Shown here in pieces: positions 6,860-38,243 of a stretch of DNA of 38,243 nucleotides. Position numbers and translations under genes: made by a program. The stretch is from Parcubacteria group bacterium CG11_big_fil_rev_8_21_14_0_20_39_14 (GTDB lineage Bacteria > Patescibacteriota > Minisyncoccia > Minisyncoccales > GCA-002787255), in NCBI GenBank assembly GCA_002787255.1, contig PCWD01000056.1:1-38243 (forward strand), read 5' to 3'. How positions within the stretch are numbered: the first letter of the stretch is position 1; every line of letters begins with the position of its first letter. Below the pieces are notes generated by a model that ran no database searches, was not told the origin of the DNA, and saw nothing but the letters and a program-made list of their open reading frames with translations.

Positions 6860-8338
6860 CTAAAGATTTAGAGTTTGTTCAAAGAGTTTGGCGAAGTCAA
6901 AAATTCTTTCTTCTTTAAACCAGGGCCCGATAACCTGAAGACCGACTGGCAACCCGCCAGCCTTGCCGCAAGAAACAGAAACTGCCGGAAGTCCGGCCAA
7001 GTTAATCGGAACGGTAAAAACATCGGACAGGTACATTGAAAGAGGGTCTTTGATTTTTTCGCCGAGTCTAAAAGCGGTAGTTGGACAGGTCGGAGTTAAA
7101 ATCAAATCTATCTTTTTGAAAGATTCCTCAAAATCTTTTTTTATAAGAGACCGAACTTTTTGAGCGCGTAAGTAGTAAGCCTCATAATAACCGGCTGACA
7201 AAGCATAAGTTCCCAGCATAATTCTTCTTTTTGGCTCGTCTCCAAATCCCTCCTGACGAGATTTTAAATAAACATCCAATAAATTATGCGCATTTTTTGA
7301 AAAAGCAGAATATCCAAACTTTATTCCGTCGTACCGGGCTAAATTAGCGCTAACCTCCGATGACATAATTATGTAATAACAAGCTATAGCGTATTCTGTG
7401 TGGGGCAAACTTATTTCCTCAATTTTTGCCCCCAATTCTCTTGCCTTGTCAATGGCTTTTTTTACCACATTTTCCACTTTTGAGTCAATACCCTTTACAA
7501 AATACTCCCTTGGAACCCCTATGCGTAGATTTTGGATTTTGCCTGCCCCGTACCGCGCCAAAGGCTCTGGTGCGGGGGATTTTGGATTTTGGATTTTGGA
7601 TTCGACAGAAGTCGAATCCATTTGGTCTTTACCCTTTATTACATTAAAAACAGTTCTGGCATCATCTACAGTCTTGGTGATTGGTCCTATCTGGTCAAGA
7701 CTGGAGGCCATAGCAATTAATCCGAAGCGAGAAACTGCTCCGTAGGTAGGCTTAAATCCAACCACCCCGCAGAATGAAGCGGGCTGGCGAATTGAGCCGC
7801 CGGTATCCGAGCCCAAAGCATAAACAGTAAAGGACGCAGCTACTGCTGCTGCCGAACCGGAGGAAGAACCGCCCGGAACCCGGGATTCATTATGGGGATT
7901 TTTGGTCGGGAAAAAACCCGAGTTTTCTCCGGAAGAACCCATAGCAAATTCATCCATATTGGTCTTTCCAAGAATTACTGCGCCGGCTTTTTTCAATCTT
8001 TCCACAACACAGGCGTCATAAACAGCGGTGTAATTTTCTAAAATTTTTGAGCCGGCAGTGCATCGCTCTCCTTCCACCAAAATATTATCTTTCACAGCCA
8101 TCGGGATTCCGGCAAGCGGGCTCAAATCTTCGCCATTTTCAATTTTTTCATCAATCCTTTTGGCTGTATTTAAAGCAATTTCCGGGGAAAGATTAATAAA
8201 TGCCCCTAATTTTTTGTCCTCTTTTTCAATTTTTTCCAAAAAAACCCGGGTTAATTCCAGAGAAGAAAATTTCTTTTTCTTTAAGCCCTCATAAGTTTCT
8301 TTGATGGTAAGTTTATGAAGCTCCACTTTAAAAATCAA
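6860..8338 (-). CDS. gatA: Glutamyl/aspartyl-tRNA amidotransferase subunit A
   Basis: 492 aa. Amidase signature GGSSSGSAAAVA. Motifs KDN, DSTS and IGVPREYF present. Confidence 0.93.
   Translation of the reverse strand: MIFKVELHKLTIKETYEGLKKKKFSSLELTRVFLEKIEKEDKKLGAFINLSPEIALNTAKRIDEKIENGEDLSPLAGIPMAVKDNILVEGERCTAGSKILENYTAVYDACVVERLKKAGAVILGKTNMDEFAMGSSGENSGFFPTKNPHNESRVPGGSSSGSAAAVAASFTVYALGSDTGGSIRQPASFCGVVGFKPTYGAVSRFGLIAMASSLDQIGPITKTVDDARTVFNVIKGKDQMDSTSVESKIQNPKSPAPEPLARYGAGKIQNLRIGVPREYFVKGIDSKVENVVKKAIDKARELGAKIEEISLPHTEYAIACYYIIMSSEVSANLARYDGIKFGYSAFSKNAHNLLDVYLKSRQEGFGDEPKRRIMLGTYALSAGYYEAYYLRAQKVRSLIKKDFEESFKKIDLILTPTCPTTAFRLGEKIKDPLSMYLSDVFTVPINLAGLPAVSVSCGKAGGLPVGLQVIGPWFKEERIFDFAKLFEQTLNL
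7528..7620. repeat. In-frame repeat insertion in gatA, related to the intergenic CCCCG...TACGGGGCAGGCAAA element
   Basis: Minus-sense sequence is aaaatccaaaatccaaaatcccccgcaccagagcctttggcgcggtacggggcaggcaaaatccaaaatc. It shares tacggggcaggcaaa plus flanking heptamer words with 24857-24899 and 27313-27356. Confidence 0.7.
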
Positions 8339-8471
8339 AAATCAAATATCAAAAATCAAAATTATCACCGCCGAAGCGGGATTCCGCTATGGCGGAACAT
8401 ATTAAAAATTAAAAATTTTGAATTTTGCATTATCATTTTGCATTTTAATTTTTTGCATTTTGATTTCGGGG

Positions 8472-8827: not shown

Positions 8828-8921
8828 CACCCCGTTAGATAGAAAATTTATTTTATAAATTTTCATCTAACGGGGTAAAGGACTTTATAACGCTCCCCCG
8901 TTAGATAATTATCTAACGGGG
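8828..8921. repeat. ccccgttaga/tctaacgggg palindromic word element, locus 1, overlapping the ligA stop
   Basis: Two hairpins. The second, ccccgttagataattatctaacgggg (8896-8921), contains the last four ligA codons (GPVR) and the stop. Confidence 0.7.
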
Positions 8922-11109: not shown

Positions 11110-11239
11110 TATTTGCTATTTTAAATATTTTATACCCCGCACCAGCCCCGCACCAAGATTTCTCTGGTGCGAGGTGGTGCGGAAATAGTCCAGCACCGAG
11201 CTTTACTCTGGCGCTGGGTTTGCTCTTTTATTTTAGCGC

Positions 11240-12940: not shown

Positions 12941-13080
12941 CTAATTTGATATTTGATATTTGATTTTAGCGACCCCGCCCTTTCTATAATTTCCAAAAAG
13001 TTTTGAAATTTTTATCTGTATTTATCAATTATTTAAGTTATTAACCTTTGTGGAAACTTTAGAAAAGGCGGGGGAGCGCT
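12941..13080. mobile_element. MITE-like element, copy 1
   Basis: Own TIRs are ccccgccctttcta (12973-12986) and tagaaaaggcgggg (13060-13073). Its reverse complement is near-identical over about 130 bp to 20745-20886. Confidence 0.75.
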
Positions 13081-13619
13081 TACGGTAGGTCAAGATTTCT
13101 TTGGGAAACTGTTGTCTGAAAATTGAGCTCAACTTGATACATAGAACCAACGCTGTCCAGACTTTTTACTTTTAAAACCGTAGTTACCCTGGGTTGGGTA
13201 TTGTCTGCCGTGCCAACGCCCGAAACATCAAAGTAAAGCTTCTCAACCTTTACATTGCTTGAACTTATATAATCAGCCCCCTTGGTGGAAGAGTCTTCTT
13301 TAACTCTATTATTCTCAAGAGTGTAAATTATCGTTCCCTTGATTGCATGGTTTTTTACATTTAGGGAAAGGAGTTGGACGCCGTTGGAAGTAACAATTTC
13401 GCTCATTCTTAGGGCCTTGGCAACTGTTTCCATAACATATCTTCCATTGTCTAAAACTTTTTGAGTTTCCAAACTTCTCCGCTGGGCCTTGAGCGCCGCT
13501 GAAAAAAGACCGGAAGCAGCTGCCACGGTTAACCCAAACAATGCCACTGATACCAATAATTCAACGAGAGTAAAACCTTTGTTTTTTATTGTTCTATTGT
13601 TAAATTGTTCTATTGTCAT
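13080..13619 (-). CDS. Prepilin-type minor pilin, PilW/GspJ-like
   Basis: MTIEQFNNRTIKNKG|FTLVELLVSVALFGL: class III signal with G/F cleavage site and Glu at +5. Confidence 0.75.
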   Translation of the reverse strand: MTIEQFNNRTIKNKGFTLVELLVSVALFGLTVAAASGLFSAALKAQRRSLETQKVLDNGRYVMETVAKALRMSEIVTSNGVQLLSLNVKNHAIKGTIIYTLENNRVKEDSSTKGADYISSSNVKVEKLYFDVSGVGTADNTQPRVTTVLKVKSLDSVGSMYQVELNFQTTVSQRNLDLP

Positions 13620-14920: not shown

Positions 14921-15775
14921 TCAAATTAGAAAACCGAGATACCAATTTATTAACAAATCTCCCCAGAATAATGCAACAAAGGTTCCGGCTACTAAAAATG
15001 GTCCAAAGGGCACTTCGCTCTTAAGGCTCTTTTTGCCAAAAGCGAGCAGTCCCATACCCATTATACCCCCCAATAAAAAACCAAAAAAGAGGGCTGTTAA
15101 AATATTCGGCCAACCCAAAATTAACCCTAAAAGAAATGCCAATTTTACATCTCCCCAACCCATCCAGCGCTCCCGGGACATCAAAACGATAGCTAAAAAA
15201 AATGTTGATGCTAAAATCGCTGATAAAAATGGGTTTAATAGAGTTTTGAAATCCGAAATCCGAAATCCGAAATCCGAAACAAATTCTAAATTTAAAATTC
15301 TGAAAACCTGATAAAAAAACGTAATAATAATTGCTGGAAAAATAATTCTGTCGGGAATAATATAGTGTTTTAAATCTACAACAAAAATTATTATAAGAAA
15401 ACAGGCAATAAGCAAAAAATAACAAATAGGAAATGGGTTTTGAACCCCGCACCAGAACAAGTTCGATGCTGGGCAGGAATTTAAAATTGAAAATTCATTG
15501 AAAATTAGGAGAAATAGCGACCCGGTCGCTATTTCGACTAAGGGATATTGCCAGGAAATTTTTTGATGACAAGAACGGCATTTTCCCTGAAGCAAAATAA
15601 AACTAAAAACTGGCATGAGGTCATACCAGGCAATTACTTTTTTGCAATGAGGACAATAAGACCGACCAGAAATTCTTTCTCCTTTTGGCAAACGGCAGAT
15701 TACAACATTAAGAAAACTGCCGACACAAAGACCAAGAATGAAAATAATTAAAAACACCGGTTTTATCGGCGCCAA
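14921..15775 (-). CDS. pilD: Prepilin peptidase (A24 family)
   Basis: N-terminal Cys pairs CPHC...CRSC. Catalytic Asp motifs DLKHYIIPD and GWGDVKL. Start codon uncertain (TTG at 15775). Confidence 0.9.
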   Translation of the reverse strand: MAPIKPVFLIIFILGLCVGSFLNVVICRLPKGERISGRSYCPHCKKVIAWYDLMPVFSFILLQGKCRSCHQKISWQYPLVEIATGSLFLLIFNEFSILNSCPASNLFWCGVQNPFPICYFLLIACFLIIIFVVDLKHYIIPDRIIFPAIIITFFYQVFRILNLEFVSDFGFRISDFKTLLNPFLSAILASTFFLAIVLMSRERWMGWGDVKLAFLLGLILGWPNILTALFFGFLLGGIMGMGLLAFGKKSLKSEVPFGPFLVAGTFVALFWGDLLINWYLGFLI

Positions 15776-15879: not shown

Positions 15880-17097
15880 TTAAAATACCGTGCCGGCCAT
15901 CTGATAAATGGGCATTATAATCCCAACAACAATAAATCCCACGGCAGCCCCAAGCACTAAAATCATTAGGGGCTCAACAAGGCTGACCAAATTATCGGTC
16001 ATTCTGGTTACTTCTTTTTTATAAAATTCGGCTGAGTTTTTTAAAACTGCCGGCAATTTACCGGTTTTTTCACCGATTAAAATCATTTGAGTAATTAAAG
16101 GGGGTATTTCTTTTTCCATTTTAAATATAGAGCTCATAAATTCTCCCCGCCTTATTCCCGCCTCGGCTTTAAGAATTATGTCTCTATAAGTTTCGTTTCC
16201 GACGACATCTGCCGCTACCTCCATTGATTTGGAAATTGGCAAGCCTCCCGTGATTAGGGTGCTTAAATTTTCCGAAAAACGGGCAAGGGAGATTTTTTTA
16301 AAAAGTTCTCCAAAAACCGGCACTTTTAAAATAAATTTGTCCCAGATTTTTTTGCCTTTGGCCGTAGCTTTCCAATATAGAAAAAAAACAATGCCCCCGG
16401 CCAAAAATATAAATAATATCCAGCCCCAGCTTCTTAAAAACATGGTAAAGGCCATAATTATTCGGGTGACCGTTGGCAGACCCTGACCCGATTCTTCCAA
16501 AACTGAAGTTAAAGCCGGAATTACAAAAAGAAGCATTATGGTCATTACAATAATCAGGGCGCAAAAAATAAAAGCCGGGTAATACATTGACCCTTTAACT
16601 TTGCTCATTATATCGTATTCGCTTTCATAGTGGTCGGCAAGGTAAGACAGCGATTCGGAAAGTTTTCCGGAAAGTTCTCCGGCTCGAATCATGCTTACAT
16701 AAAAACTGGAAAAAATTTCAGGGTATTTTGAAAGAGCTTTGGAAAAAGCCGTCCCGGACTCAACATTGTCAGAGATTTTAAAAATCTTTTCCCGAAAACG
16801 AGAATTACCTACCTGGTTGCCCATTGTTCTTAAAGACTCAACCAAAGGAACTTCTGAGACAAAAAGGATGGCAAGCTGACGAGAAAAAATGGAAACATCC
16901 CGTAAACTAACCTTTTTGGTAATTAATGGAATTTCTAATTTTTTAAAGAAAGAAGGAGCTTCCTCAATTTCTCTTAAACTAGTTACTATAAGATTGTGTC
17001 TTTGTAAAATATCAATAGCCGCTTCCTGGCTGGAAACCTCAACAATGCCTGACTGAACTGTTCCCTTTGGGGTTCTGGCTTGATATTCAAACTTCAT
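15880..17097 (-). CDS. pilC: Type IV pilus platform protein PilC (GspF family)
   Basis: 405 aa with two GspF-like repeats and three TM segments. Located between pilB and pilD. Confidence 0.9.
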   Translation of the reverse strand: MKFEYQARTPKGTVQSGIVEVSSQEAAIDILQRHNLIVTSLREIEEAPSFFKKLEIPLITKKVSLRDVSIFSRQLAILFVSEVPLVESLRTMGNQVGNSRFREKIFKISDNVESGTAFSKALSKYPEIFSSFYVSMIRAGELSGKLSESLSYLADHYESEYDIMSKVKGSMYYPAFIFCALIIVMTIMLLFVIPALTSVLEESGQGLPTVTRIIMAFTMFLRSWGWILFIFLAGGIVFFLYWKATAKGKKIWDKFILKVPVFGELFKKISLARFSENLSTLITGGLPISKSMEVAADVVGNETYRDIILKAEAGIRRGEFMSSIFKMEKEIPPLITQMILIGEKTGKLPAVLKNSAEFYKKEVTRMTDNLVSLVEPLMILVLGAAVGFIVVGIIMPIYQMAGTVF

Positions 17098-17176
17098 ACC
17101 TTTAAAAACTTAAAAAATTAAAAATCTAAAAAAATAAAATAATCGGTTTTTATATCTTTAAATTTTTATGTTTTTA
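17098..17176 (-). repeat. AT-rich palindromic 5-prime leader element, copy upstream of pilC
   Basis: cctttaaaaacttaaaaaattaaaaatctaaaaaaataaaataatcggtttttatatctttaaatttttatgttttta. About 95 percent identical by eye to 20355-20433. Confidence 0.75.
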
Positions 17177-19031: not shown

Positions 19032-19077
19032 GTTAGAAATTGTTAGCGAGCCAAAGGCGAGCGTTACAATTTCTTAC

Positions 19078-19143
19078 ACCCCGTTAGATAGCCCCAATTA
19101 GAGATGGCGACTACGCCTATCTAATGGGGCGTCTAATGGGGTA
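19078..19143. repeat. ccccgttaga/tctaatgggg palindromic element, locus 2, upstream of pilB
   Basis: ccccgttagatagccccaattagagatggcgactacgcctatctaatggggcgtctaatgggg. Aligns with 21644-21706. Confidence 0.7.
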
Positions 19144-19274: not shown

Positions 19275-20354
19275 TTAGTATTGTTTTTTCATTCTTGACC
19301 TTAATTCTGACGGATTTAAAGAATAAATCAAAGCGTTTTCCATTGAAATTTCTCTTCTTTTTACAAGTTCGACCAAAGAACGATTGAGAGCTATCATTCC
19401 GAGCTCCGTATTTGTTTCAATAACCAAGTTTAATTCATGGGTTTTGCCCTCTCTAATCAGGGATGATACAGCCGGGCAACTAATCATTATTTCGCTTGCC
19501 GGAATTCTTCCACCCTCAATTCGAGGAATAAGCCTTTGGGAAATTACTCCCAAAAGAGTAGCCGCAAGCTGAGACCTTATCTGATTCTGTTGACTGGCCG
19601 GAAAACTATCAATAATTCTGTCAACAGTTTGAGAAGCGTTATTGGTGTGCAAAGAAGCAAAAACCAAGTGTCCGGTCTCGGCTGCCGTAATGGCCGCCGA
19701 CATCGTTTCATAGTCTCTCATCTCTCCTATCATAATTACATCGGGATCCTGACGGAAAACCGATCTTAGAGCATTGTGAAAATTATAAGTATCCAATATC
19801 ACCTCTCTTTGATTAACAATTGCCCTGTCCTGAATAAAAAGATACTCAATTGGGTCCTCAATTGTTACAATATGGTCGGTTCGGGTATGGTTTATTTCAT
19901 CAATTAAAGCCGCTAAAGTTGTGGATTTTCCGTGACCGGATGGGCCAACCACCAAAACAAAACCCTGATTTGCTTGAGAAAATTCATGACAGATGGGTGG
20001 CAAATTTAACTCTTCAATTGTTTTAATTCTGGCGGGAATAAGACGCAAGGCCGCGCTAATAAAACCCCTCTGAAAAAAAACATTAACCCGAAACCTGACT
20101 TTGTCCTTGTGGGAATAAGAAAAATCAATTTCTTTTTCTCTAAGAAACCTTTCTTTCTGTTCTTCTGAAAGCAAAGCAAAAACCAAACCCTCGCAATCCT
20201 TGGGAGTAAGAATTTCTTTCTTTTCAATGGAAACCAGAGCTCCGTCAATTCTCAAAGTTGGCTTTCTGCCTACCCCTAAATGAAGATCTGACGCATTGCC
20301 TTGAGCAACCATGAGTAAAAGCTCATCTAATTCTTGTTGATAATTAATTATCAT
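19275..20354 (-). CDS. pilT: Type IV pilus retraction ATPase PilT
   Basis: 359 aa. Walker A GPSGHGKST. PilT-type size with no N-terminal GSPII domain. Confidence 0.9.
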   Translation of the reverse strand: MIINYQQELDELLLMVAQGNASDLHLGVGRKPTLRIDGALVSIEKKEILTPKDCEGLVFALLSEEQKERFLREKEIDFSYSHKDKVRFRVNVFFQRGFISAALRLIPARIKTIEELNLPPICHEFSQANQGFVLVVGPSGHGKSTTLAALIDEINHTRTDHIVTIEDPIEYLFIQDRAIVNQREVILDTYNFHNALRSVFRQDPDVIMIGEMRDYETMSAAITAAETGHLVFASLHTNNASQTVDRIIDSFPASQQNQIRSQLAATLLGVISQRLIPRIEGGRIPASEIMISCPAVSSLIREGKTHELNLVIETNTELGMIALNRSLVELVKRREISMENALIYSLNPSELRSRMKKQY

Positions 20355-20433
20355 GCCTTTAAAAACTTAAAAAATTAAAAATCTAAAAACATAAAATAAT
20401 CGGTTTTTATATTTTTAGATTTTTATGTTTTTA
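20355..20433 (-). repeat. AT-rich palindromic 5-prime leader element, copy upstream of pilT
   Basis: Abuts the pilT start codon. Differs from 17098-17176 at about 4 positions. Confidence 0.75.
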
Positions 20434-20446
20434 GATTTTTATTACT

Positions 20447-20743
20447 TTAATATGGCACAAAGGGATTTTCTCGACCGCTCTCTTCTACGGTTAGAGAAGA
20501 AATGTCGGGAAAACTTTCCAGGGCCTGGAATCTCTCATCCTTTAAAATTTCCCATTTTATATCAAGTTTTTTTAGTTCTTCGGAAACAACGGGAACTGCC
20601 TCCTGGGGCTTTTCAGAAACCGGCGGCTTCGCCCCCAAAAAAACAAAATAAAAAATGCTTGCCAAAGCAATCAATACAATTACAAAACCAACCCACAAAA
20701 TGAGCTTTTTCCTTCTTCCTTTTTGAACAATTGTTATGGCCAT
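20447..20743 (-). CDS. Single-pass membrane protein, possibly PilP-like
   Basis: 98 aa with an N-terminal TM helix and a C-terminal GRENPFVPY motif. Located between pilO and pilT. Confidence 0.45.
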   Translation of the reverse strand: MAITIVQKGRRKKLILWVGFVIVLIALASIFYFVFLGAKPPVSEKPQEAVPVVSEELKKLDIKWEILKDERFQALESFPDISSLTVEESGRENPFVPY

Positions 20744-20744
20744 A

Positions 20745-20886
20745 AGCTCTCCCCTGCCCTTTCTAAAGTTTCCACAAAGGTTAATAACTCAAATAATTGA
20801 TAAATACAGATAAAAATTTCAAAACTTTTTGGAAATTATAGAAAGGGCGGGGTCGCTAAAATAAAATATCAAATATTAAAAATCAA
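20745..20886. mobile_element. MITE-like element, copy 2, inverted relative to copy 1
   Basis: tcccctgccctttctaaagtttccacaaaggttaataact...ggaaattatagaaagggcggggtcgc. It abuts the start codon of the 98-aa gene and supplies its GGGGAG Shine-Dalgarno. Confidence 0.75.
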
Positions 20887-21082
20887 AAATAGAATAAGGT
20901 TTCTAAAATTTACCTAGAACCAATTCTTCACGGAGTTTATCCCGCACCGAATTTATTCTGGTGCGGGGTTAAGAATGGCACGGGGCAAGCACTGGGGAAT
21001 TCGACCAAAAATACTGACCGTGCTTTCCCCCCACTCTCCACCAAGACGGGGTAGTATTTGAGGTTATTTTACATTTTGATTT

Positions 21083-21643: not shown

Positions 21644-21706
21644 CCTGTTAGATAGCCCCGTTAGGTGGCGGTTACGCCCATCTAATGGGGCGCTCATCTA
21701 ACGGGG
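21644..21706. repeat. ccccgttaga/tctaacgggg palindromic element, locus 3, upstream of pilO
   Basis: ctgttagatagccccgttaggtggcggttacgcccatctaatggggcgctcatctaacgggg. Confidence 0.7.
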
Positions 21707-21778
21707 TCAGTCAACCCCGTTAGAAATAAAATATAAAAGATAAAAATTTATAGGGTGAGATTGTTGAATAATTATTTT

Positions 21779-24827: not shown

Positions 24828-24856
24828 TTTCTAAATCTCAATTTCTAACTTCTAAA

Positions 24857-24899
24857 CCCGGAGGATCCCGCCAAGGCGGGACCTACGGGGCAGGCAAAT
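24857..24899 (+). repeat. GC hairpin core element CCCCG-(cccgcc aa ggcggg)-ACCTACGGGGCAGGCAAAT, copy A
   Basis: cccggaggatcccgccaaggcgggacctacggggcaggcaaat. Near-identical to 27313-27356 and flanked by heptamer-type AT words. Confidence 0.8.
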
Positions 24900-24982
24900 T
24901 CAAAATTCCAAATTCAAAATTCTAAACACGTAGTTTCGGATTTCAAAATTTGAATTTCGAATTTCCTGCCCACAGCAGGTTG

Positions 24983-25057: not shown

Positions 25058-25212
25058 GACAACTTAACGAATTTCTGGCGGGAAATTGAGGTCGCTTGAG
25101 CCTCGCTTCGGAAGCGAGCAGAAACGTTAGACGGGAGTGCCGGCCGCGGGACGGCACTAAAACTCCGCGTCAGGATTTCTCTTGAAATGGGTTCGGATTT
25201 CGTCAGTAGTCC
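25058..25212. ncRNA. GC-rich structured spacer (E3), partly homologous to elements E1/E2; candidate small RNA or element remnant
   Basis: Hairpins ctcgctt-cgg-aagcgag (25102-25118) and gtgccg-gccgcggga-cggcac (25137-25157). gaaattgaggtcgcttgagcctcgcttcggaagcgagcagaaacgt aligns with E2 aatttgttgaggacttagtgagcgagccgctggaagcgagcgaacgt. Confidence 0.4.
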
Positions 25213-25263
25213 CAGTTTCCAAACCAAAAATGCCCGTTACGGGCATTTTTGGTTTGGAAACTG
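25213..25263. terminator. Perfect ~24-bp hairpin between convergent tRNA-Pro and tRNA-Gln
   Basis: cagtttccaaaccaaaaatgcccg-tta-cgggcatttttggtttggaaactg. The 3-prime arm touches the tRNA-Gln 3-prime end. Confidence 0.6.
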
Positions 25264-27274: not shown

Positions 27275-27312
27275 ACAAAATAAATTCTAAATCCTAATAT
27301 CTAAATCCTAAA

Positions 27313-27356
27313 CCCCGAAGAATCCCGCCAAGGCGGGACCTACGGGGCAGGCAAAT
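27313..27356 (+). repeat. GC hairpin core element, copy B
   Basis: ccccgaagaatcccgccaaggcgggacctacggggcaggcaaat, located upstream of dnaX. Confidence 0.8.
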
Positions 27357-27476
27357 ACCAAATTCTAAATCCCAATGTTTCAAACGTGTTTAAAATTTAA
27401 GGAATTGAAATTTAGATATTGTTTAGAATTTCGGACCAGAGCGCTAATTCCATTAGTGCTCGGCCGAGCACTCAAT

Positions 27477-29992: not shown

Positions 29993-31555
29993 GTGGCTAA
30001 AAAAAAAGAAATAATTATTCTTTTAATAATTTTAGCGATTGCCGCCTTTTTCAGGTTTTTTGAATTGGCGGATATTCCTCCCGGGCTTTATCCAGATGTG
30101 GCAATTAACGGGAATGACGCCCTTGACGCCCTCAAAACCGGAGATTTTAAGGTTTTTTATCCTGAAAATAACGGCCGAGAGGGCCTTTTTATTAATCTTA
30201 TCGCCCTGTCTTTTTTAATTTTCGGCCCTTCAATCCTGGCTATAAAAATTGTAGCGGCAGTTATCGGAATTCTTACAGTTTTTGGTCTTTACCTTTTGAC
30301 AAAAGAGCTGTTTAAAAAAACGCCGATTGCCCTGCTTTCCGCTTTTTTTCTGGCTACTTCATTCTGGCATACCAATTTTTCGCGCATCGGCTTTCGGGGA
30401 ATTTTAGTTCCTTTTATTCTGGTTTTTTCTTCTTATTTCCTCTTTAGAGCATTGAGAACCAACAAGCTTTCGGATTTTATAATCTCCGGTGTATTTTTTG
30501 GTTTGGGATTTTATACTTATATTTCCTTTAGAATGGCTGTTTTGATTTTACCCGCTATCATCATTCCTTTTTGGTTTGTCTGCAAAAAAAATAAGGTCCA
30601 GAAGAAATATCTATTTTCTGTTTTCTATTTTCTATTTTCTATTTTTTTAGTTGCTCTGCCGATTGGTCTTTATTTTTTAGACAATCCCCAAGATTTTATT
30701 AGTCGAGCCGGCGGAGTTTCAATTTTTGCTCAAGAAAATCCCTTCAAAGCGTTTTTTGAAAGTTTTATAAAACACTTAGGAATGTTTAATATCCGGGGGG
30801 ACGGCAACTGGAGGCATAACTTCGCGGACGCTCCAATGCTCTCCTGGCCGGTCGGAATATTCTTTTTAATCGGCTTGGTGATATCAATTAAGGATTTATT
30901 CTTATTGCGAAAAGAAAAAAACTATTTTAGGTTTTATGTTTTATGTTTTATGTTAAGCTGGTTTTTGGCAATGCTTTTGCCCGGAATTCTAACTTATGAG
31001 GGTGTCCCCCACGCTTTGCGGGTAATCGGAGTTGTCCCCGCACTCTATATCTTTGCCGGCCTCGGGGCTTTCTGGTTTATTGAAAAAGCAAAACCTTTGA
31101 CAAAAAACTTAAAATTATTTTTTATTTTTTACTTTTTGCTTTTTGCTTTGAGCGGATATGCCGAGTATGATAAATATTTTGTTGATTGGGCGAAGCACCC
31201 AACCACTTCCGATGAATTCTCCAAAGAAAAAGTGGAAATCGGACTGTATTTGAATTCATTGACTGATAATATAGAAAAATTTGTGATTATAAACGAAGCC
31301 GGAGTCCCCGCGCCCTGGCCCGACGGGCTTCCGATGCCGGCTCAAACACCAATGTTTATTGAAAGAACGGTTTTTAACGAGCCTCAAGCTGCTTACTTAA
31401 AAGAAAATGAGCTTGATAAAATTAAACCCGCCAAAAAGGCGGTAATAATTCCAATAAGGTTTGATAAAGAACTTTTTGATAAACTTAAAGAACTCCATCC
31501 CGAAGGAGAAGCTAAAAAGGAAAATGGAGTGTGGATATACCTTATAAAAAAATAA
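29993..31555 (+). CDS. GT-C fold glycosyltransferase (family 39/83, ArnT/PMT-like)
   Basis: 520 aa with more than 10 TM segments. ArnT/PMT-like topology with a soluble C-terminal domain. Confidence 0.6.
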   Translation: MAKKKEIIILLIILAIAAFFRFFELADIPPGLYPDVAINGNDALDALKTGDFKVFYPENNGREGLFINLIALSFLIFGPSILAIKIVAAVIGILTVFGLYLLTKELFKKTPIALLSAFFLATSFWHTNFSRIGFRGILVPFILVFSSYFLFRALRTNKLSDFIISGVFFGLGFYTYISFRMAVLILPAIIIPFWFVCKKNKVQKKYLFSVFYFLFSIFLVALPIGLYFLDNPQDFISRAGGVSIFAQENPFKAFFESFIKHLGMFNIRGDGNWRHNFADAPMLSWPVGIFFLIGLVISIKDLFLLRKEKNYFRFYVLCFMLSWFLAMLLPGILTYEGVPHALRVIGVVPALYIFAGLGAFWFIEKAKPLTKNLKLFFIFYFLLFALSGYAEYDKYFVDWAKHPTTSDEFSKEKVEIGLYLNSLTDNIEKFVIINEAGVPAPWPDGLPMPAQTPMFIERTVFNEPQAAYLKENELDKIKPAKKAVIIPIRFDKELFDKLKELHPEGEAKKENGVWIYLIKK

Positions 31556-31613: not shown

Positions 31614-33515
31614 ATGCCAAATAAACTTACCTACATAATTGCTGCGATACTGCTCACCATAATGGCTGGTTTGGCATTTACCAGCCTGGTTGGTGATTCA
31701 GCGACAATGGATGAACTCTCTCATATTCCGGCCGGTTATTCTTATGTCAGCCAAAAGGATATGAGGATTAATCCCGAGCATCCGCCCCTAATCAAGGACT
31801 TGGGCGGACTTTTGCCTTATCTTTTTTTGAATGTCAATTTCCCAAAAGACCATAAAAGCTGGACCGAAGAGATAAATAGCCAATGGTGGTTTGGCGAAAC
31901 TCTCTTATACAAATCGGGAAATGACGCTGACAAAATTATATTTTTGGCAAGAATACCAATGATTTTTATTCTCTTGCTCTTGGGATTTTATGTTTTCAGG
32001 TGGGCAAGAGAGCTCAAGGGAAATTCAGCCGGAATTTTAGCCCTTGTTTTCTATAGTTTTTCTCCGACTTTTTTGGCTCACGGCAGATATGTAACAACCG
32101 ACATAGGAGCGGCGGCCGGTTTTTTCATCAGCATTTATTATTTTTGGCGTTTTCTTAAAAAACCCTCAAAAAAAAATCTAATCTTTGCCGGAATCGCCTT
32201 TGGGACAGCCCAGCTTTTAAAATTTACCGTCTTTTTGGTGGCGCCGGCTTTACCGATTTTAGCGGTAATTTGGGCGGTTTTACACAAAAAATCAATATTA
32301 AAATACCTTGGCTATTCTCTACTGCTCATGTTTATTGGGTTTTTGCTTGTTTACCCTGTTTATCTTTATCATACCTGGAATCTACCAATGGAAAGACAGA
32401 TAAATGATACCGAAAAATTATTATCCTCAACTCCATTTAAGCCGCTGGCAAAATTGGATATCTGGATGGCCTCAAAACCGATTTTAAGACCCTACGCTCA
32501 ATATTTTTTGGGACTTTTGCTTGTCTTCCAGCGAGGAATCTATGGTCATACAACTTATTTTTTGGGTGAAATTTCAGCTGGAGGCTGGAAACATTATTTC
32601 CCGGTGGTTTATCTATTAAAACCGCCCCTGGCTTTTCATATTCTGACAATAATCGCTCTTGTTTGTTTTGTTTGTTTTGTTTTCCGGCTTAAACCCAAAA
32701 TTGGCTCCCAAAGAATAAAAGAGGTTCTGCAAGATAAAAAACATTTTGCTGTTTTTGCAATGCTCGCTTTTATAATCGCCTATTGGCTAGTCAGTCTTTC
32801 GGGAAATTTAACTCTCGGCGTCCGCCATCTCTCCCCTATTTTTCCCTTTATGCATATTCTGGTAAGCCTTGGAATAATCCACTGGATAAGGGGCGAGGGA
32901 ACGTGGCTCTTGAGACAATCCGCAGACAAATTGGCTTGGTCTCCGCCAAAGGCGGAGCAATTTGTTGAGGACTTAGTGAGCGAGCCGCTGGAAGCGAGCG
33001 AACGTGTCAAAAGAGCCACTTTCCGAGCCCCCCGCTTTCGAGATAACTGCCCGAGCCTTCTTAAAAAACACGCCAAACTAATAATAATCTGCATTCTCTT
33101 TGGCTGGTATATTTTCTCCTCTGTTTCGGTTTATCCGCACTATCTTACCCATTTCAACGAATTGGCCGGAGGGCCAAAAGGCGGCTCGCGCTATACGGTT
33201 GATTCTAATTTAGATTGGGGTCAGGATTTAAAAAGATTGAAAAAATGGGTTGAAGAAAACAATATTGAGAAAATAAAAATTGATTATTTTGGCGGCGGAA
33301 ATGTTGAATATTATTTCGGCAAAACCTACGAAAAGTTTGACCCAAAATCCGGCAAACAGAACGGCTGGCTGGCAATCTCGGCCACCCCCTTGCGAAACGG
33401 ACAGGGAAAACCAGCCCCGGGATTTAAAGAAGAAACCGGTTATTACAATTGGCTGAAAACCTACGAACCCGTCACCGTGCTCGGCAACTCAATTTTTGTC
33501 TACCATATAAAATAA
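31614..33515 (+). CDS. GT-C fold glycosyltransferase (family 39-like) with an in-frame GC-rich insert
   Basis: 633 aa. N-terminal loop GDSATMDELSHIPAGYSY...NPEHPPLIKDL. Polytopic. Confidence 0.65.
   Translation: MPNKLTYIIAAILLTIMAGLAFTSLVGDSATMDELSHIPAGYSYVSQKDMRINPEHPPLIKDLGGLLPYLFLNVNFPKDHKSWTEEINSQWWFGETLLYKSGNDADKIIFLARIPMIFILLLLGFYVFRWARELKGNSAGILALVFYSFSPTFLAHGRYVTTDIGAAAGFFISIYYFWRFLKKPSKKNLIFAGIAFGTAQLLKFTVFLVAPALPILAVIWAVLHKKSILKYLGYSLLLMFIGFLLVYPVYLYHTWNLPMERQINDTEKLLSSTPFKPLAKLDIWMASKPILRPYAQYFLGLLLVFQRGIYGHTTYFLGEISAGGWKHYFPVVYLLKPPLAFHILTIIALVCFVCFVFRLKPKIGSQRIKEVLQDKKHFAVFAMLAFIIAYWLVSLSGNLTLGVRHLSPIFPFMHILVSLGIIHWIRGEGTWLLRQSADKLAWSPPKAEQFVEDLVSEPLEASERVKRATFRAPRFRDNCPSLLKKHAKLIIICILFGWYIFSSVSVYPHYLTHFNELAGGPKGGSRYTVDSNLDWGQDLKRLKKWVEENNIEKIKIDYFGGGNVEYYFGKTYEKFDPKSGKQNGWLAISATPLRNGQGKPAPGFKEETGYYNWLKTYEPVTVLGNSIFVYHIK
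32889..33040. repeat. GC-rich palindromic element, copy E2, inside the GT39-like CDS
   Basis: TIRs gcgagggaacgtggctctt (32893-32911) / aagagccactttccgagc (33011-33028). Nested hairpins acaaatt/aatttgt and ctccgcc/ggcggag. Same plus-strand orientation as E1. Confidence 0.75.
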
Positions 33516-33568: not shown

Positions 33569-33907
33569 ATGCCTAATCGTCTCGCTAATTTAACTGCCGG
33601 AATTTTGCTTTTGTTAATGGCTCTTTTCACAATTCCAAGCGCTGCCGACGATTCAGCCACCTGCGATGAAATCACCCACATTACAGCCGGCTATTCTTAT
33701 CTAACCCAGAAAGATATGCGGCTGAATCCCGAACATCCGCCGCTTATCAAAGATTTAGCCGCTTTGCCCCTGCTTTTTTTCAATCTGAATTTTCCAATAA
33801 ACTCAATATACTGGAATTCGGGATTCAATATGTCCTCTGATATGGGCGAGCAATTTTTATATTCAGGCAACAATTTCGGTCAAATTTTATTTTTTGCCAG
33901 GGGCTAA
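33569..33907 (+). pseudogene. Truncated third GT39-like paralogue (N-terminal 112 aa only)
   Basis: MPNRLANLTAGILLLLMAL...DDSATCDEITHITAGYSYLTQKDMRLNPEHPPLIKDL parallels residues 1-115 of the 31614-33515 product, then stops. Confidence 0.65.
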
Positions 33908-37886: not shown

Positions 37887-38243
37887 TTATTGTCCGTAAT
37901 AATAGTCCTGGTTTGTTGAATAACCTTTACCATCCATACAGGTTACTTCATATACCGGAAAATAGTAAGACCTGGAAGCGACATCCCAGTTTTCATTATC
38001 TCCTGTATCAACATATTTATAAACTATCACCCTTCCCCGCTGGTATTTGTAATTTTGGTATCCATAGGTTCCTTGAGCGCATTTACAGAATTTTTTTGCC
38101 TGGCCTTGATTCCTATAAAGATACTGGTAATCTCCTTTCCAACATTTTTCAGCTGGTGGCGGTATGGGAGTTGGTGTGGGTGTTGGAGTTGGAGTTGGAG
38201 TTGGAGTTGGAGTGGGAGTGGGAGTTGGAGTTGGAGTTGGAGT
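37887..38243 (-). CDS. Partial CDS: (Thr-Pro)n linker plus Cys/Tyr-rich C-terminal domain; N-terminus lies beyond the window
   Basis: Own translation: TPTPTPTPTPTPTPTPTPTPTPTPIPPPAEKCWKGDYQYLYRNQGQAKKFCKCAQGTYGYQNYKYQRG...DYYYGQ*. Stop codon at 37887-37889. Confidence 0.7.
   Translation of the reverse strand, partial: TPTPTPTPTPTPTPTPTPTPTPTPTPIPPPAEKCWKGDYQYLYRNQGQAKKFCKCAQGTYGYQNYKYQRGRVIVYKYVDTGDNENWDVASRSYYFPVYEVTCMDGKGYSTNQDYYYGQ

What the first reader, a model, noticed from the sequence alone, without database searches (positions are those of the whole stretch)
32889..33040. Second copy of the element, in a GT39-like gene, shows compensatory stem changes relative to copy E1
Copy E2 adds about 50 residues (GEGTWLLRQSADKLAWSPPKAEQFVEDLVSEPLEASERVKRATFRAPRFRD) to a loop of the polytopic GT-C enzyme.

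- Both nested stems differ in sequence from E1 but stay paired: GGCAAAAT/ATTTTGCC versus ACAAATT/AATTTGT, and CTTCCG/CGGAAG versus CTCCGCC/GGCGGAG.
- The TIRs also co-vary.
- E1 additionally carries a ~45-bp extra hairpin module (ggcttcgccgaaggcgaagg).

Covariation suggests the fold, as DNA cruciform or RNA, is what is conserved rather than the encoded peptide.
Basis: seen in the sequence. Interest (0 to 1): 0.72.

Follow-up and report, generated by a model that had tools for sequence, protein, structure and literature searches.

The report
Mobile three-armed hairpin element in genes
A 145-base GC-rich element that folds into a three-armed hairpin sits in frame inside a membrane glycosyltransferase gene of a candidate-phyla-radiation bacterium. 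It belongs to a small uncatalogued family whose stems change in matched pairs while the loops stay fixed, which is a new variation on the 'selfish' palindromic repeats known from Rickettsia.

Summary
E2 (window 32890-33031, + strand) and E1 (896-1076) are two copies of one element. They share exact core motifs, and their stems differ by compensating changes.

I found 17 distinct copies in Parcubacteria and Saccharibacteria contigs. All fold as a three-way junction:
- a long terminal stem, P1;
- an arm made of P2, a conserved loop (GCUUGGU / GGCAUGGUC) and P3;
- a short hairpin, P4 (GAGCGAGC-CGCUGG-GCGAGCGA).

P2 and P3 are 96-99% paired, and 14 of their 15 pairs show double changes. No Rfam family matches.

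The copies lie at unrelated sites. Most are intergenic. Three are in frame inside different genes: a PMT_2 GT-C enzyme, a GT4 glycosyltransferase and MnmA. The closest homologues lack the insert. In the GT-C host the insert is a low-confidence excursion between the last two transmembrane helices. The encoded peptide has no relatives.

No target-site duplication, conserved termini or nearby transposase were found, and the density is low.

Best reading: a non-autonomous, RPE-like insertion element whose folded core is what selection preserves. The in-frame copies are the tolerated survivors.

Still open are RNA versus single-stranded DNA, the acting strand and the mobilising enzyme.

I class it as a new variant of a known kind, of moderate to high interest.

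The parts
32890..33031 (+). Element copy E2, whole palindrome (142 nt; C-run continues to 33033)
   Evidence: Fold z-scores. Covariance-model scores of 93.2 and 93.7 bits. Coordinates.
32890..32917 (+). E2, P1 5' arm. Pairs with 33003-33031. Contains a CGAG/CGAG tandem G.A and a 2x2 purine internal loop.
32918..32925 (+). E2, junction J1 (ATCCGCAG). CCGCAG is conserved in the family.
   Evidence: column identity 0.86
32926..32965 (+). E2, the P2 arm. P2 is 32926-32933 paired with 32958-32965. The conserved asymmetric loop GCTTGGTC is at 32934-32941. The P3 hairpin is at 32942-32956.
   Evidence: Covariation. Loop identity 0.91, and this loop was not part of the search pattern.
32966..32977 (+). 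E2, junction J2/4: TGAGGAC plus a variable purine-rich spacer
   Evidence: GAGGAC was fixed by my search pattern in most fetched copies.
32978..33001 (+). E2, P4 hairpin GAGCGAGC-CGCTGGAA-GCGAGCGA. The stem carries two tandem G.A steps.
   Evidence: Diverged copies replace the G.A steps with Watson-Crick pairs: L125b is GUUCGC/GCGAAC and L024b is CUUCGGC/GCCGAAG.
33003..33031 (+). E2, P1 3' arm
31614..33515 (+). Host gene of E2: a 633-aa PMT_2 / GT-C glycosyltransferase. The insert is residues ~426-477, between the last two transmembrane helices.
   Evidence: Pfam PF13231. Homologues of ~580 aa lack the insert. Hydropathy. AlphaFold pLDDT below 50 for residues 429-480. Foldseek top hits are Pmt4, STT3/AglB and ArnT.
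896..1076 (+). Element copy E1 (181 nt), in the same strand orientation as E2
   Evidence: (82 bits)
928..964 (+). Extra 37-nt module present only in E1, with the mini-hairpin CTTCGCC-GAA-GGCGAAG
   Evidence: The same CGCC-GAAG-GCG hairpin is found in L024b and in the unrelated element of L135.
3..1220 (-). Host gene of E1: a GT4 glycosyltransferase that runs off the window start. E1 is read in frame, antisense to the element's + orientation, and adds 60 aa.
   Evidence: Frame. Pfam hits. After deleting the 60 aa, Glyco_transf_4 aligns in one piece (protein 17-168 to profile 3-167; 68.5 against 64.7 bits).

Best explanation
**What it is.** E2 and E1 are copies of a non-autonomous insertion element of about 135-180 nt. 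The element is GC-rich in AT-rich genomes and is specific, so far, to Patescibacteria (CPR): Parcubacteria, including Liptonbacteria-like genomes, and Saccharibacteria.

**Shown.**
- Each copy folds, as a single strand, into a three-way junction. It has a long terminal stem P1 of 20-33 bp, an arm made of P2, a conserved asymmetric loop and P3, and a short hairpin P4.
- Stem sequences drift but stay complementary. The loops and junction strands are nearly invariant.
- Copies sit at unrelated genomic sites.
- In three different genes the copy is an extra segment that the closest homologues lack.

**Inferred.**
- The element spreads, rarely, with the help of a factor encoded elsewhere. That factor recognises the folded core rather than the ends. 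This would explain why the core is constrained while the arms co-vary and no target duplication is seen.
- Copies that land in genes survive only when three conditions hold: the length is a multiple of three, the reading frame is stop-free, and the site is a permissive loop.
- The 48-60 added residues are therefore a by-product, as with Rickettsia palindromic elements.

**Open.** Whether the folded form that matters is RNA or single-stranded DNA is not settled.
For: **Family membership**
- There are 17 distinct copies, scoring 46-113 bits. Chance occurrences of the same 20-25-nt core in high-GC DNA score only 20-31 bits.

**Covariation**
-. L022 against L072 gives 52 unchanged pairs, 10 compensated and 0 broken.

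**Conserved unpaired parts outside my search pattern**
- Loop L2 has column identity 0.91 and J1 has 0.86.
- The P4 3' strand is identical in 13 of the 15 full-score copies.

**Insertion status**
- P0002/L127 (66-72% identical protein) lacks E2.
- The GT4 domain becomes contiguous when E1 is removed.
- MnmA of L125 has 46 residues where the solved MnmA 9hlv has 6.
- An independent sample carries the identical E2.

**Unrelated contexts**
- pilC-pilin, pheS-pheT, dnaJ-grpE, efp-mnmA, next to tRNA genes, downstream of lemA.

**Peptide**
- Not conserved.

**Fold of the insert in the host**
- A disordered loop excursion.

**Precedent**
- Small bacterial repeats fused in frame into ORFs (RPE and others), and repeats with compensatory changes (bcr1): PMC3184786 and PMC5896051.
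- A homologue of the same GT family carries a different in-frame hairpin element.
Against: - No target-site duplication.
- No conserved terminal sequence.
- No transposase, reverse transcriptase or HUH gene in the window or next to other copies.
- Low density. Only the index copy was found in about 45 kb of additional flanking DNA, and only two copies in the 38-kb window even with search filters off.
- No recent near-identical copies within one genome. E1 and E2 are only 77% identical.
- Invariant loops and junctions with covarying stems are more typical of a functional RNA than of a decaying selfish repeat.
- No empty-site / filled-site pair at nucleotide resolution was obtained, so mobility is inferred from protein-level comparisons.
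Confidence: 0.58

Rival explanations
1. It is primarily a functional structured RNA that has been copied to several sites and only occasionally lands in genes. Possible roles are a small RNA, an antisense RNA, a protein-binding RNA or an mRNA-processing or stabilising module. The conserved loops would bind a protein or another RNA.
For: - Loops and junctions are near-invariant while stems covary.
- Tandem G.A motifs are conserved on one strand only: 27 G.A against 10 C.U in P1.
- The + strand folds better than the - strand in 13 of 14 copies: total -1002 against -892 kcal/mol, with 62 against 42 G.U pairs.
- Copy number is low.
- The element is conserved across CPR classes.
Against: - There is no conserved gene neighbourhood.
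- Three copies lie inside ORFs.
- The better-folding strand is antisense to local genes in 11 of 15 copies, and no promoter signal exceeds chance.
- G.U pairs are almost absent from P2 and P3: 2 of about 250 cells. In P1, G.U (10) equals A.C (9). This fits a constraint felt by both DNA strands better than a one-strand RNA constraint.
- No Rfam family matches.
Confidence: 0.22
2. It is a catalytic or retro-mobile RNA. The three-way junction would be a self-cleaving ribozyme with a hammerhead-like topology, or the recognition module for a reverse transcriptase, and the element would spread through an RNA intermediate.
For: - The strand order P1, [P2 hairpin], junction, [P4 hairpin], GAA, P1' matches a type III hammerhead.
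- P4 is flanked by GA ... GAA, like hammerhead stem II (read directly from the alignments).
- Target-site duplications and conserved termini are absent.
- RNA-like tandem G.A motifs are present.
Against: - The hammerhead core CUGANGA is not present. The spacer is variable (UUAGU, UGAAC, AAAGC, UAGC and others), and the base after GAA is C, G or U, not A.
- No ribozyme or retron family of Rfam matches, even at E <= 10.
- No reverse transcriptase gene was seen near any copy.
- Antisense copies would need their own promoter.
Confidence: 0.1
3. It acts as DNA. The element would be a cruciform or single-strand hairpin site for a recombinase or an HUH-type enzyme, or for replication or segregation, comparable to REP/RAYT, IS200/IS605 ends or integron attC sites.
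For: - Stems are strictly Watson-Crick with very few wobble pairs.
- Close copies differ by mirrored substitutions and mirrored indels in the two arms.
- Both window copies, and L128 next to dnaA/dnaN, have the same orientation relative to the inferred direction of replication.
- The DNA fold z-score is -4.5.
Against: - The defining sequence tags are missing: GTAG/CGTC for REP, and RYYYAAC/GTTRRRY for attC.
- No Y1/HUH or integrase gene is nearby.
- A three-way junction with conserved loops is not known for these systems (from my own knowledge).
- The orientation bias is not significant (11:4, two-sided p about 0.12).
Confidence: 0.1

Closest known systems
Rickettsia palindromic elements (RPE; Ogata et al. 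2000, as summarised in PMC3184786)
   Same: - About 105-146 bp palindromic repeats.
- Found in intergenic DNA and fused in frame inside ORFs in permissive regions.
- The peptide is a by-product.
- No transposase of their own, and the mobilisation mechanism is unknown.
   Different: - A different phylum, with no sequence relation shown.
- Much lower copy number here.
- A branched three-way core with invariant loops that is conserved across classes of CPR bacteria, rather than genus-specific families.
bcr1 (Bacillus cereus group) and ERIC / RU-type small mobile repeats (PMC3184786, PMC2759123)
   Same: - About 100-170 bp repeats that fold into extended hairpins.
- Compensatory base changes keep the RNA-level structure (bcr1).
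- Some copies are intragenic or fused to ORFs.
   Different: - bcr1 is flanked by 5-bp direct repeats; none were found here.
- Those families are high-copy within a genome and restricted to close relatives.
Bacterial MITEs (for example Coxiella QMITE, PMC5896051; review PMC10969869)
   Same: - Short and non-coding.
- Inverted-repeat ends.
- Occasional in-frame insertion into genes.
   Different: - In MITEs the terminal inverted repeats are the conserved part and match a parent IS element, and insertions are flanked by target-site duplications.
- Here the ends vary, the centre is conserved, and neither a parent IS nor a duplication was found.
Type III hammerhead ribozyme
   Same: - A three-way junction closed by the 5'/3' terminal stem.
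- A hairpin flanked by GA ... GAA.
   Different: - The catalytic core (CUGANGA, A15.1-U16.1, cleavage triplet) is absent.
- No Rfam hit.

Membership tests
RPE-like in-frame palindromic repeats (functional class) | Short palindromic repeat present at several unrelated sites in a genome or lineage | tested here: met
   17 distinct copies at unrelated loci, two of them in the window.
RPE-like in-frame palindromic repeats (functional class) | Copies inside ORFs that keep the frame and are absent from homologues | tested here: met
   PMT_2, GT4 and MnmA.
RPE-like in-frame palindromic repeats (functional class) | Insert lies in a surface or loop region, not in the catalytic core | tested here: met
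   In the GT-C host it lies between transmembrane helices 407-425 and 479-505, with pLDDT below 50. In MnmA it replaces a 6-residue connector.
Rickettsia RPE families proper (RPE-1 to RPE-8) | Sequence homology to an RPE consensus | not tested
   No RPE consensus sequences were available in the tools. The hosts belong to a different phylum, so membership is not claimed.
MITE | Terminal inverted repeats conserved in sequence among copies | tested here: not met
   The arms always pair, but their sequence differs completely between subfamilies.
MITE | Target-site duplication flanking the element | tested here: not met
   13 of 15 copies have a best flanking direct repeat no better than random positions (null fraction 0.42 or more). 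The two that stand out are L031 (ATTTTT at the exact boundaries, null fraction 0.09) and L021 (AGCGAA, null fraction 0.04), which is the element's own terminal motif repeated.
MITE | Related autonomous IS element or transposase | tested here: inconclusive
   None in the window or in about 185 kb of related loci. Whole genomes could not be searched.
Any Rfam 15 family (ribozymes, retron msr, HEARO, 6S, SRP and others) | Covariance-model match | tested here: not met
   No hit at gathering score in the window or in 11 loci. At E <= 10, only two chance miRNA/lncRNA matches appeared.
Hammerhead ribozyme, type III | Three-way junction with the terminal stem closing the structure | tested here: met
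   Consensus fold.
Hammerhead ribozyme, type III | Conserved core CUGANGA ... GAAA and the cleavage triplet | tested here: not met
   The junction is CGAGGAC plus a variable spacer of 4-7 nt, and GAA is followed by C, G or U.
REP / REPIN with RAYT | 20-40-nt palindrome tagged by GTAG or CGTC, with a RAYT gene in the genome | tested here: not met
   The 5' end is (A)GCGAG, the element is 135-180 nt, and no Y1 transposase is in the window. The tag rule is taken from the abstract of PMC3733652.
GT-C / PMT_2 glycosyltransferase (host protein) | PMT_2 domain and GT-C fold | tested here: met
   PF13231, 54.6 bits. Foldseek hits to Pmt4, STT3/AglB and ArnT with probability 1.00.

The most novel reading that the evidence does not exclude
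The conserved three-way junction is the active part of a new kind of mobile RNA in CPR bacteria. It would be either a small ribozyme or an RNA module recognised by a reverse transcriptase or an RNA-guided enzyme. The element would then copy itself through a processed, RNase III-trimmed RNA intermediate and could land inside genes. This would explain several observations:
- the invariant loops;
- the one-strand G.A motifs;
- the lack of target-site duplications;
- the absence of conserved ends.
Probability: 0.15. Interest if true: 0.85.

Novelty: new variant of a known kind. Interest (0 to 1): 0.6.

Why it matters
- **Mobilisation problem.** How small palindromic repeats such as RPEs move, and why they can sit inside essential genes, has remained unsolved since 2000. 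This family gives a different handle on the question. The terminal arms are free to vary while a 60-nt branched core is held almost constant across CPR classes, which points to a structure-reading partner that could be found by co-occurrence analysis.
- **Annotation.** Some 'extra loops' in CPR proteins are repeat-derived. A second, unrelated hairpin element sits in frame in a homologue of the same glycosyltransferase. This matters for gene annotation and structure prediction in these poorly known bacteria.
- **Catalogues.** The element is a candidate structured motif that is missing from Rfam.

Tried and rejected
- **Rfam.** Searched at gathering score and at E <= 10. Nothing was found.
- **blastn of E2 against phage and plasmid collections.** Nothing.
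- **Two scans of viral contigs.** Nothing.
- **Six-frame peptide profile against 5.8 billion proteins.** It recovered only the two proteins already known. It did not even return the E1 host, so it says little about how common in-frame copies are.
- **phmmer of the insert peptide against 1.84 billion representatives.** Nothing.
- **Target-site duplication search.** Negative.
- **Empty-site comparison at DNA level with L127.** The loop is too diverged to place boundaries.
- **Pseudoknot GGUCC / GGAC.** Considered by eye. It is not kept in L014, L100, L082, L125b or L024b, so I dropped it.
- **HDV-like reading of GGCAUGGUCC.** No model hit, and the topology differs.
- **Hammerhead.** The topology fits but the core is absent.
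- **Intron.** Rejected, because E1 and L125a are antisense to their host genes while E2 is sense.
- **Intrinsic terminator or promoter role.** Scan results are at chance level, and the flanking T-runs are inconsistent.
- **LigA and DnaX split Pfam matches.** Checked for further inserts. No GC-rich element was found in LigA.
- **Chromosome walking.** About 100 kb around known copies yielded no further copies.
Full report
**1. The observation**

The window is AT-rich (about 38% G+C) and most of its genes lie on the minus strand. At 32890-33031 a 142-nt stretch with 58% G+C forms a long imperfect palindrome. As a single strand it folds far better than dinucleotide shuffles: z = -3.5 as RNA and -4.5 as DNA, with 0 of 200 shuffles as good.

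A second copy, E1, lies at 896-1076 on the same strand. The two align at 76-77% identity. They share the exact 20-mer GAGCGAGCCGCTGGAAGCGA, which occurs nowhere else in the window and in no shuffle.

Mapping E2's fold onto E1 gives 31 unchanged pairs, 7 compensated, 2 one-sided but still paired, and 7 broken. E1 carries an extra 37-nt hairpin module at 928-964. A covariance-model search with filters off finds no third copy in the window.

**2. Both window copies are in-frame inserts**

E2 is read in the sense direction in ORF 31614..33515. This is a 633-aa PMT_2 protein (PF13231) whose predicted structure matches Pmt4, STT3/AglB and ArnT, so it has the GT-C fold.
- 1464 homologues were found. 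The typical length is about 580 aa, and the closest ones without the insert are 66-72% identical (P0002, P0003, P0006).
- A 99.9%-identical contig from another ENA sample carries the identical E2, so the element is not an assembly artefact.
- The insert (residues 426-477) lies between hydrophobic segments 406-425 and 486-508.
- It coincides with the AlphaFold stretch of pLDDT below 50 (429-480), between helices 407-425 and 479-505.
- Other homologues also vary in length at this point.

E1 is read on the opposite strand inside a GT4 glycosyltransferase gene. Deleting the 60 element-encoded residues turns a truncated Glyco_transf_4 match (profile positions 57-167) into a contiguous one (3-167) with a higher score.

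**3. A family**

A scan of one genome per species for the 20-mer gave 17 places. Two are real copies: a Parcubacteria MAG (L014) and a Saccharibacteria MAG (L002). The rest are chance matches in high-GC DNA.

A metagenome scan for GAGGAC-N4-9-GAGCGAGCCGCTGG gave 108 places, ten of which are distinct low-GC real copies. Covariance models R1 and R2 score real copies at 46-113 bits and the chance places at 20-31 bits. They also revealed two diverged copies, L125b and L024b.

The ribosomal protein S12 next to one copy clusters with Liptonbacteria / Parcubacteria proteins.

Ascertainment caveat: GAGGAC and the first 14 nt of P4 were fixed by my pattern in most fetched copies, so their invariance is partly by construction. 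The diverged copies show that they can change.

**4. Architecture**

All copies fold as follows:
- a terminal stem P1 of 20-33 bp, often with 2x2 purine loops and a CGAG/CGAG end;
- J1, (C)CGCAG;
- P2, 8-9 bp;
- an asymmetric loop, GCUUGGU(C) or GGCAUGGUC;
- a P3 hairpin with a variable loop;
- the 3' strand of P2;
- CGAGGAC plus a spacer of 4-7 nt;
- the P4 hairpin GAGCGAGC-CGCUGG(AA)-GCGAGCGA;
- the 3' strand of P1.

P4 in the canonical copies contains two tandem G.A steps. In L125b it reads GUUCGC/GCGAAC and in L024b CUUCGGC/GCCGAAG, fully Watson-Crick, around the same loop CGCUGGA. That is the only covariation evidence for P4.

**5. Covariation**

RNAalifold on an untuned MAFFT alignment predicts P2 and P3, and 12 of 21 pairs have compensatory changes.

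On the model-based alignment of 17 distinct rows:
- P2 is 98.7% paired, with 8 of 9 pairs changed on both sides.
- P3 is 96.1% paired, with 6 of 6.
- Overall, 81% of cells are paired, against 56.8 +/- 1.3% in shuffles (0 of 500 reach the observed value) and 28-44% when partners are slid by 1-3 columns.

This alignment is fitted to the structure, and the sequences are related, so these numbers are not probabilities. R-scape was not available.

In close pairs the arms of P1 differ by mirrored changes. L022 against L072 gives 52 unchanged, 10 compensated and 0 broken pairs. L021 against L031 gives 39 unchanged and 6 compensated.

Unpaired parts that were not in my search pattern are more conserved than the stems. 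Column identity is 0.91 for L2 and 0.86 for J1, against 0.54-0.61 for the P2 and P3 strands.

**6. Which strand, RNA or DNA?**

The + orientation folds better than its complement in 13 of 14 copies: total -1002 against -892 kcal/mol, with 62 against 42 G.U pairs. It also carries the G.A mismatches: 27 G.A against 10 C.U in P1.

On the other hand, G.U pairs are almost absent from P2 and P3, at about 2 of 250 cells. In P1, G.U (10) equals A.C (9). This fits a constraint felt by both DNA strands, or arm-to-arm templated correction.

The + orientation is antisense to the host or neighbouring genes in 11 of 15 scorable copies. The two-sided binomial p is about 0.12. Promoter-like and terminator-like matches around E1 and E2 are at chance level. 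I leave this question open.

**7. Contexts and mobility**

Copies lie in the following places:
- between pilC and a pilin gene;
- between pheS and pheT;
- between dnaJ and grpE;
- between efp and mnmA;
- abutting the 3' end of tRNA genes;
- downstream of lemA;
- upstream of a GT gene close to dnaA/dnaN;
- inside three ORFs.

In MnmA of L125 the element-encoded 46 residues replace a 6-residue connector of the solved enzyme 9hlv.

Several features expected of a transposon are missing:
- There are no flanking direct repeats above chance.
- No terminal sequence is conserved across subfamilies.
- No transposase, reverse transcriptase or HUH gene is in the window or near other copies.

Density is low. 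About 45 kb of newly fetched flanks hold no further copy.

The insert peptide has no relatives among 1.84 billion representative proteins. A six-frame profile search returned only the two proteins already known.

**8. Interpretation**

The element is inserted DNA that has reached unrelated sites. It is therefore, or was, mobile and non-autonomous. Its in-frame copies are best seen as survivors of selection on frame, stop codons and position.

This is the behaviour described for Rickettsia palindromic elements and other small bacterial repeats. Compensatory changes in such repeats are known for bcr1 (PMC3184786, PMC5896051). A homologue of the same glycosyltransferase (P0081) carries a different perfect-hairpin element in frame in another loop, so the phenomenon recurs in CPR genomes.

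Three things differ from classical MITEs and RPEs:
- a branched three-way core with invariant loops, conserved across CPR classes;
- variable ends without target duplications;
- low copy number.

These features keep open three alternatives: that the fold is a functional RNA, that it is a ribozyme-like or retro-mobile RNA, or that it is a single-strand DNA site. Rfam has no such family.

**9. Verdict**

- The element is a new variant of a known kind.
- Interest is 0.6.

Noticed in passing
L135 ~1630-1720 (gene 912-2846, protein P0081): A homologue of the E2 host carries a different GC-rich perfect hairpin (GTCATTGTGAGG...CTCGCAATGAC, -60 kcal/mol). It is in frame in another loop and encodes ..VIVRRSPKATDEAIPWYASGLPRSLRSLAMT... 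It contains the same mini-hairpin CGCC-GAAG-GCG as the extra module of E1. Other homologues (P0009, P0039, P0088) also have unexplained extra segments.
   Followed up: partly
window ~7540-7580, 11137-11180, 15438-15472, 20941-20975: REP-like GC-rich hairpins built on CCCCGCACCAG ... CTGGTGCGGGG recur in intergenic DNA.
   Followed up: no
window 8865-8898, 19056-19089, 21647-21721: Another hairpin repeat family built on CCCCGTTAGAT / ATCTAACGGGG.
   Followed up: no
window 24854-24918 and 27311-27375: A 65-nt direct repeat (88% identical) containing the hairpin GGATCCCGCCAAGGCGGGACC. One copy lies next to a tRNA gene.
   Followed up: no
window 12945-13085 / 20740-20880 and 17080-17176 / 20337-20433: A 141-nt inverted repeat (95%) and a 97-nt direct repeat (91%) of AT-rich intergenic DNA bracket the type IV pilus gene cluster.
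   Followed up: no
window 25060-25216: A GC-rich, strongly folded stretch of about 160 nt lies between two tRNA genes. No Rfam family matched beyond generic hairpin (miRNA) matches.
   Followed up: partly
window 33569-33907: A 112-aa ORF right after the E2 host gene is an N-terminal fragment of another PMT_2 paralogue, probably a gene remnant. A full paralogue lies upstream at 29993-31555.
   Followed up: partly
window 38151-38243: A tandem hexanucleotide repeat (AGTTGG / GGAGTT type) runs off the end of the window.
   Followed up: no
L022 ~8300-8360 (- strand) and L072 ~1160-1210: A conserved sequence just 5' of the element in both loci contains a tRNA-like T-arm motif (GGGTTCGATTCC). It is not called as a tRNA or as any Rfam family. 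In both loci the element's other end abuts the 3' end of a tRNA gene.
   Followed up: no
all copies; window both copies on + strand: The better-folding strand of the element is antisense to local genes in 11 of 15 copies. In the window and in L128 (next to dnaA/dnaN) it lies on the inferred leading-strand template. The bias is not significant and is unexplained.
   Followed up: partly
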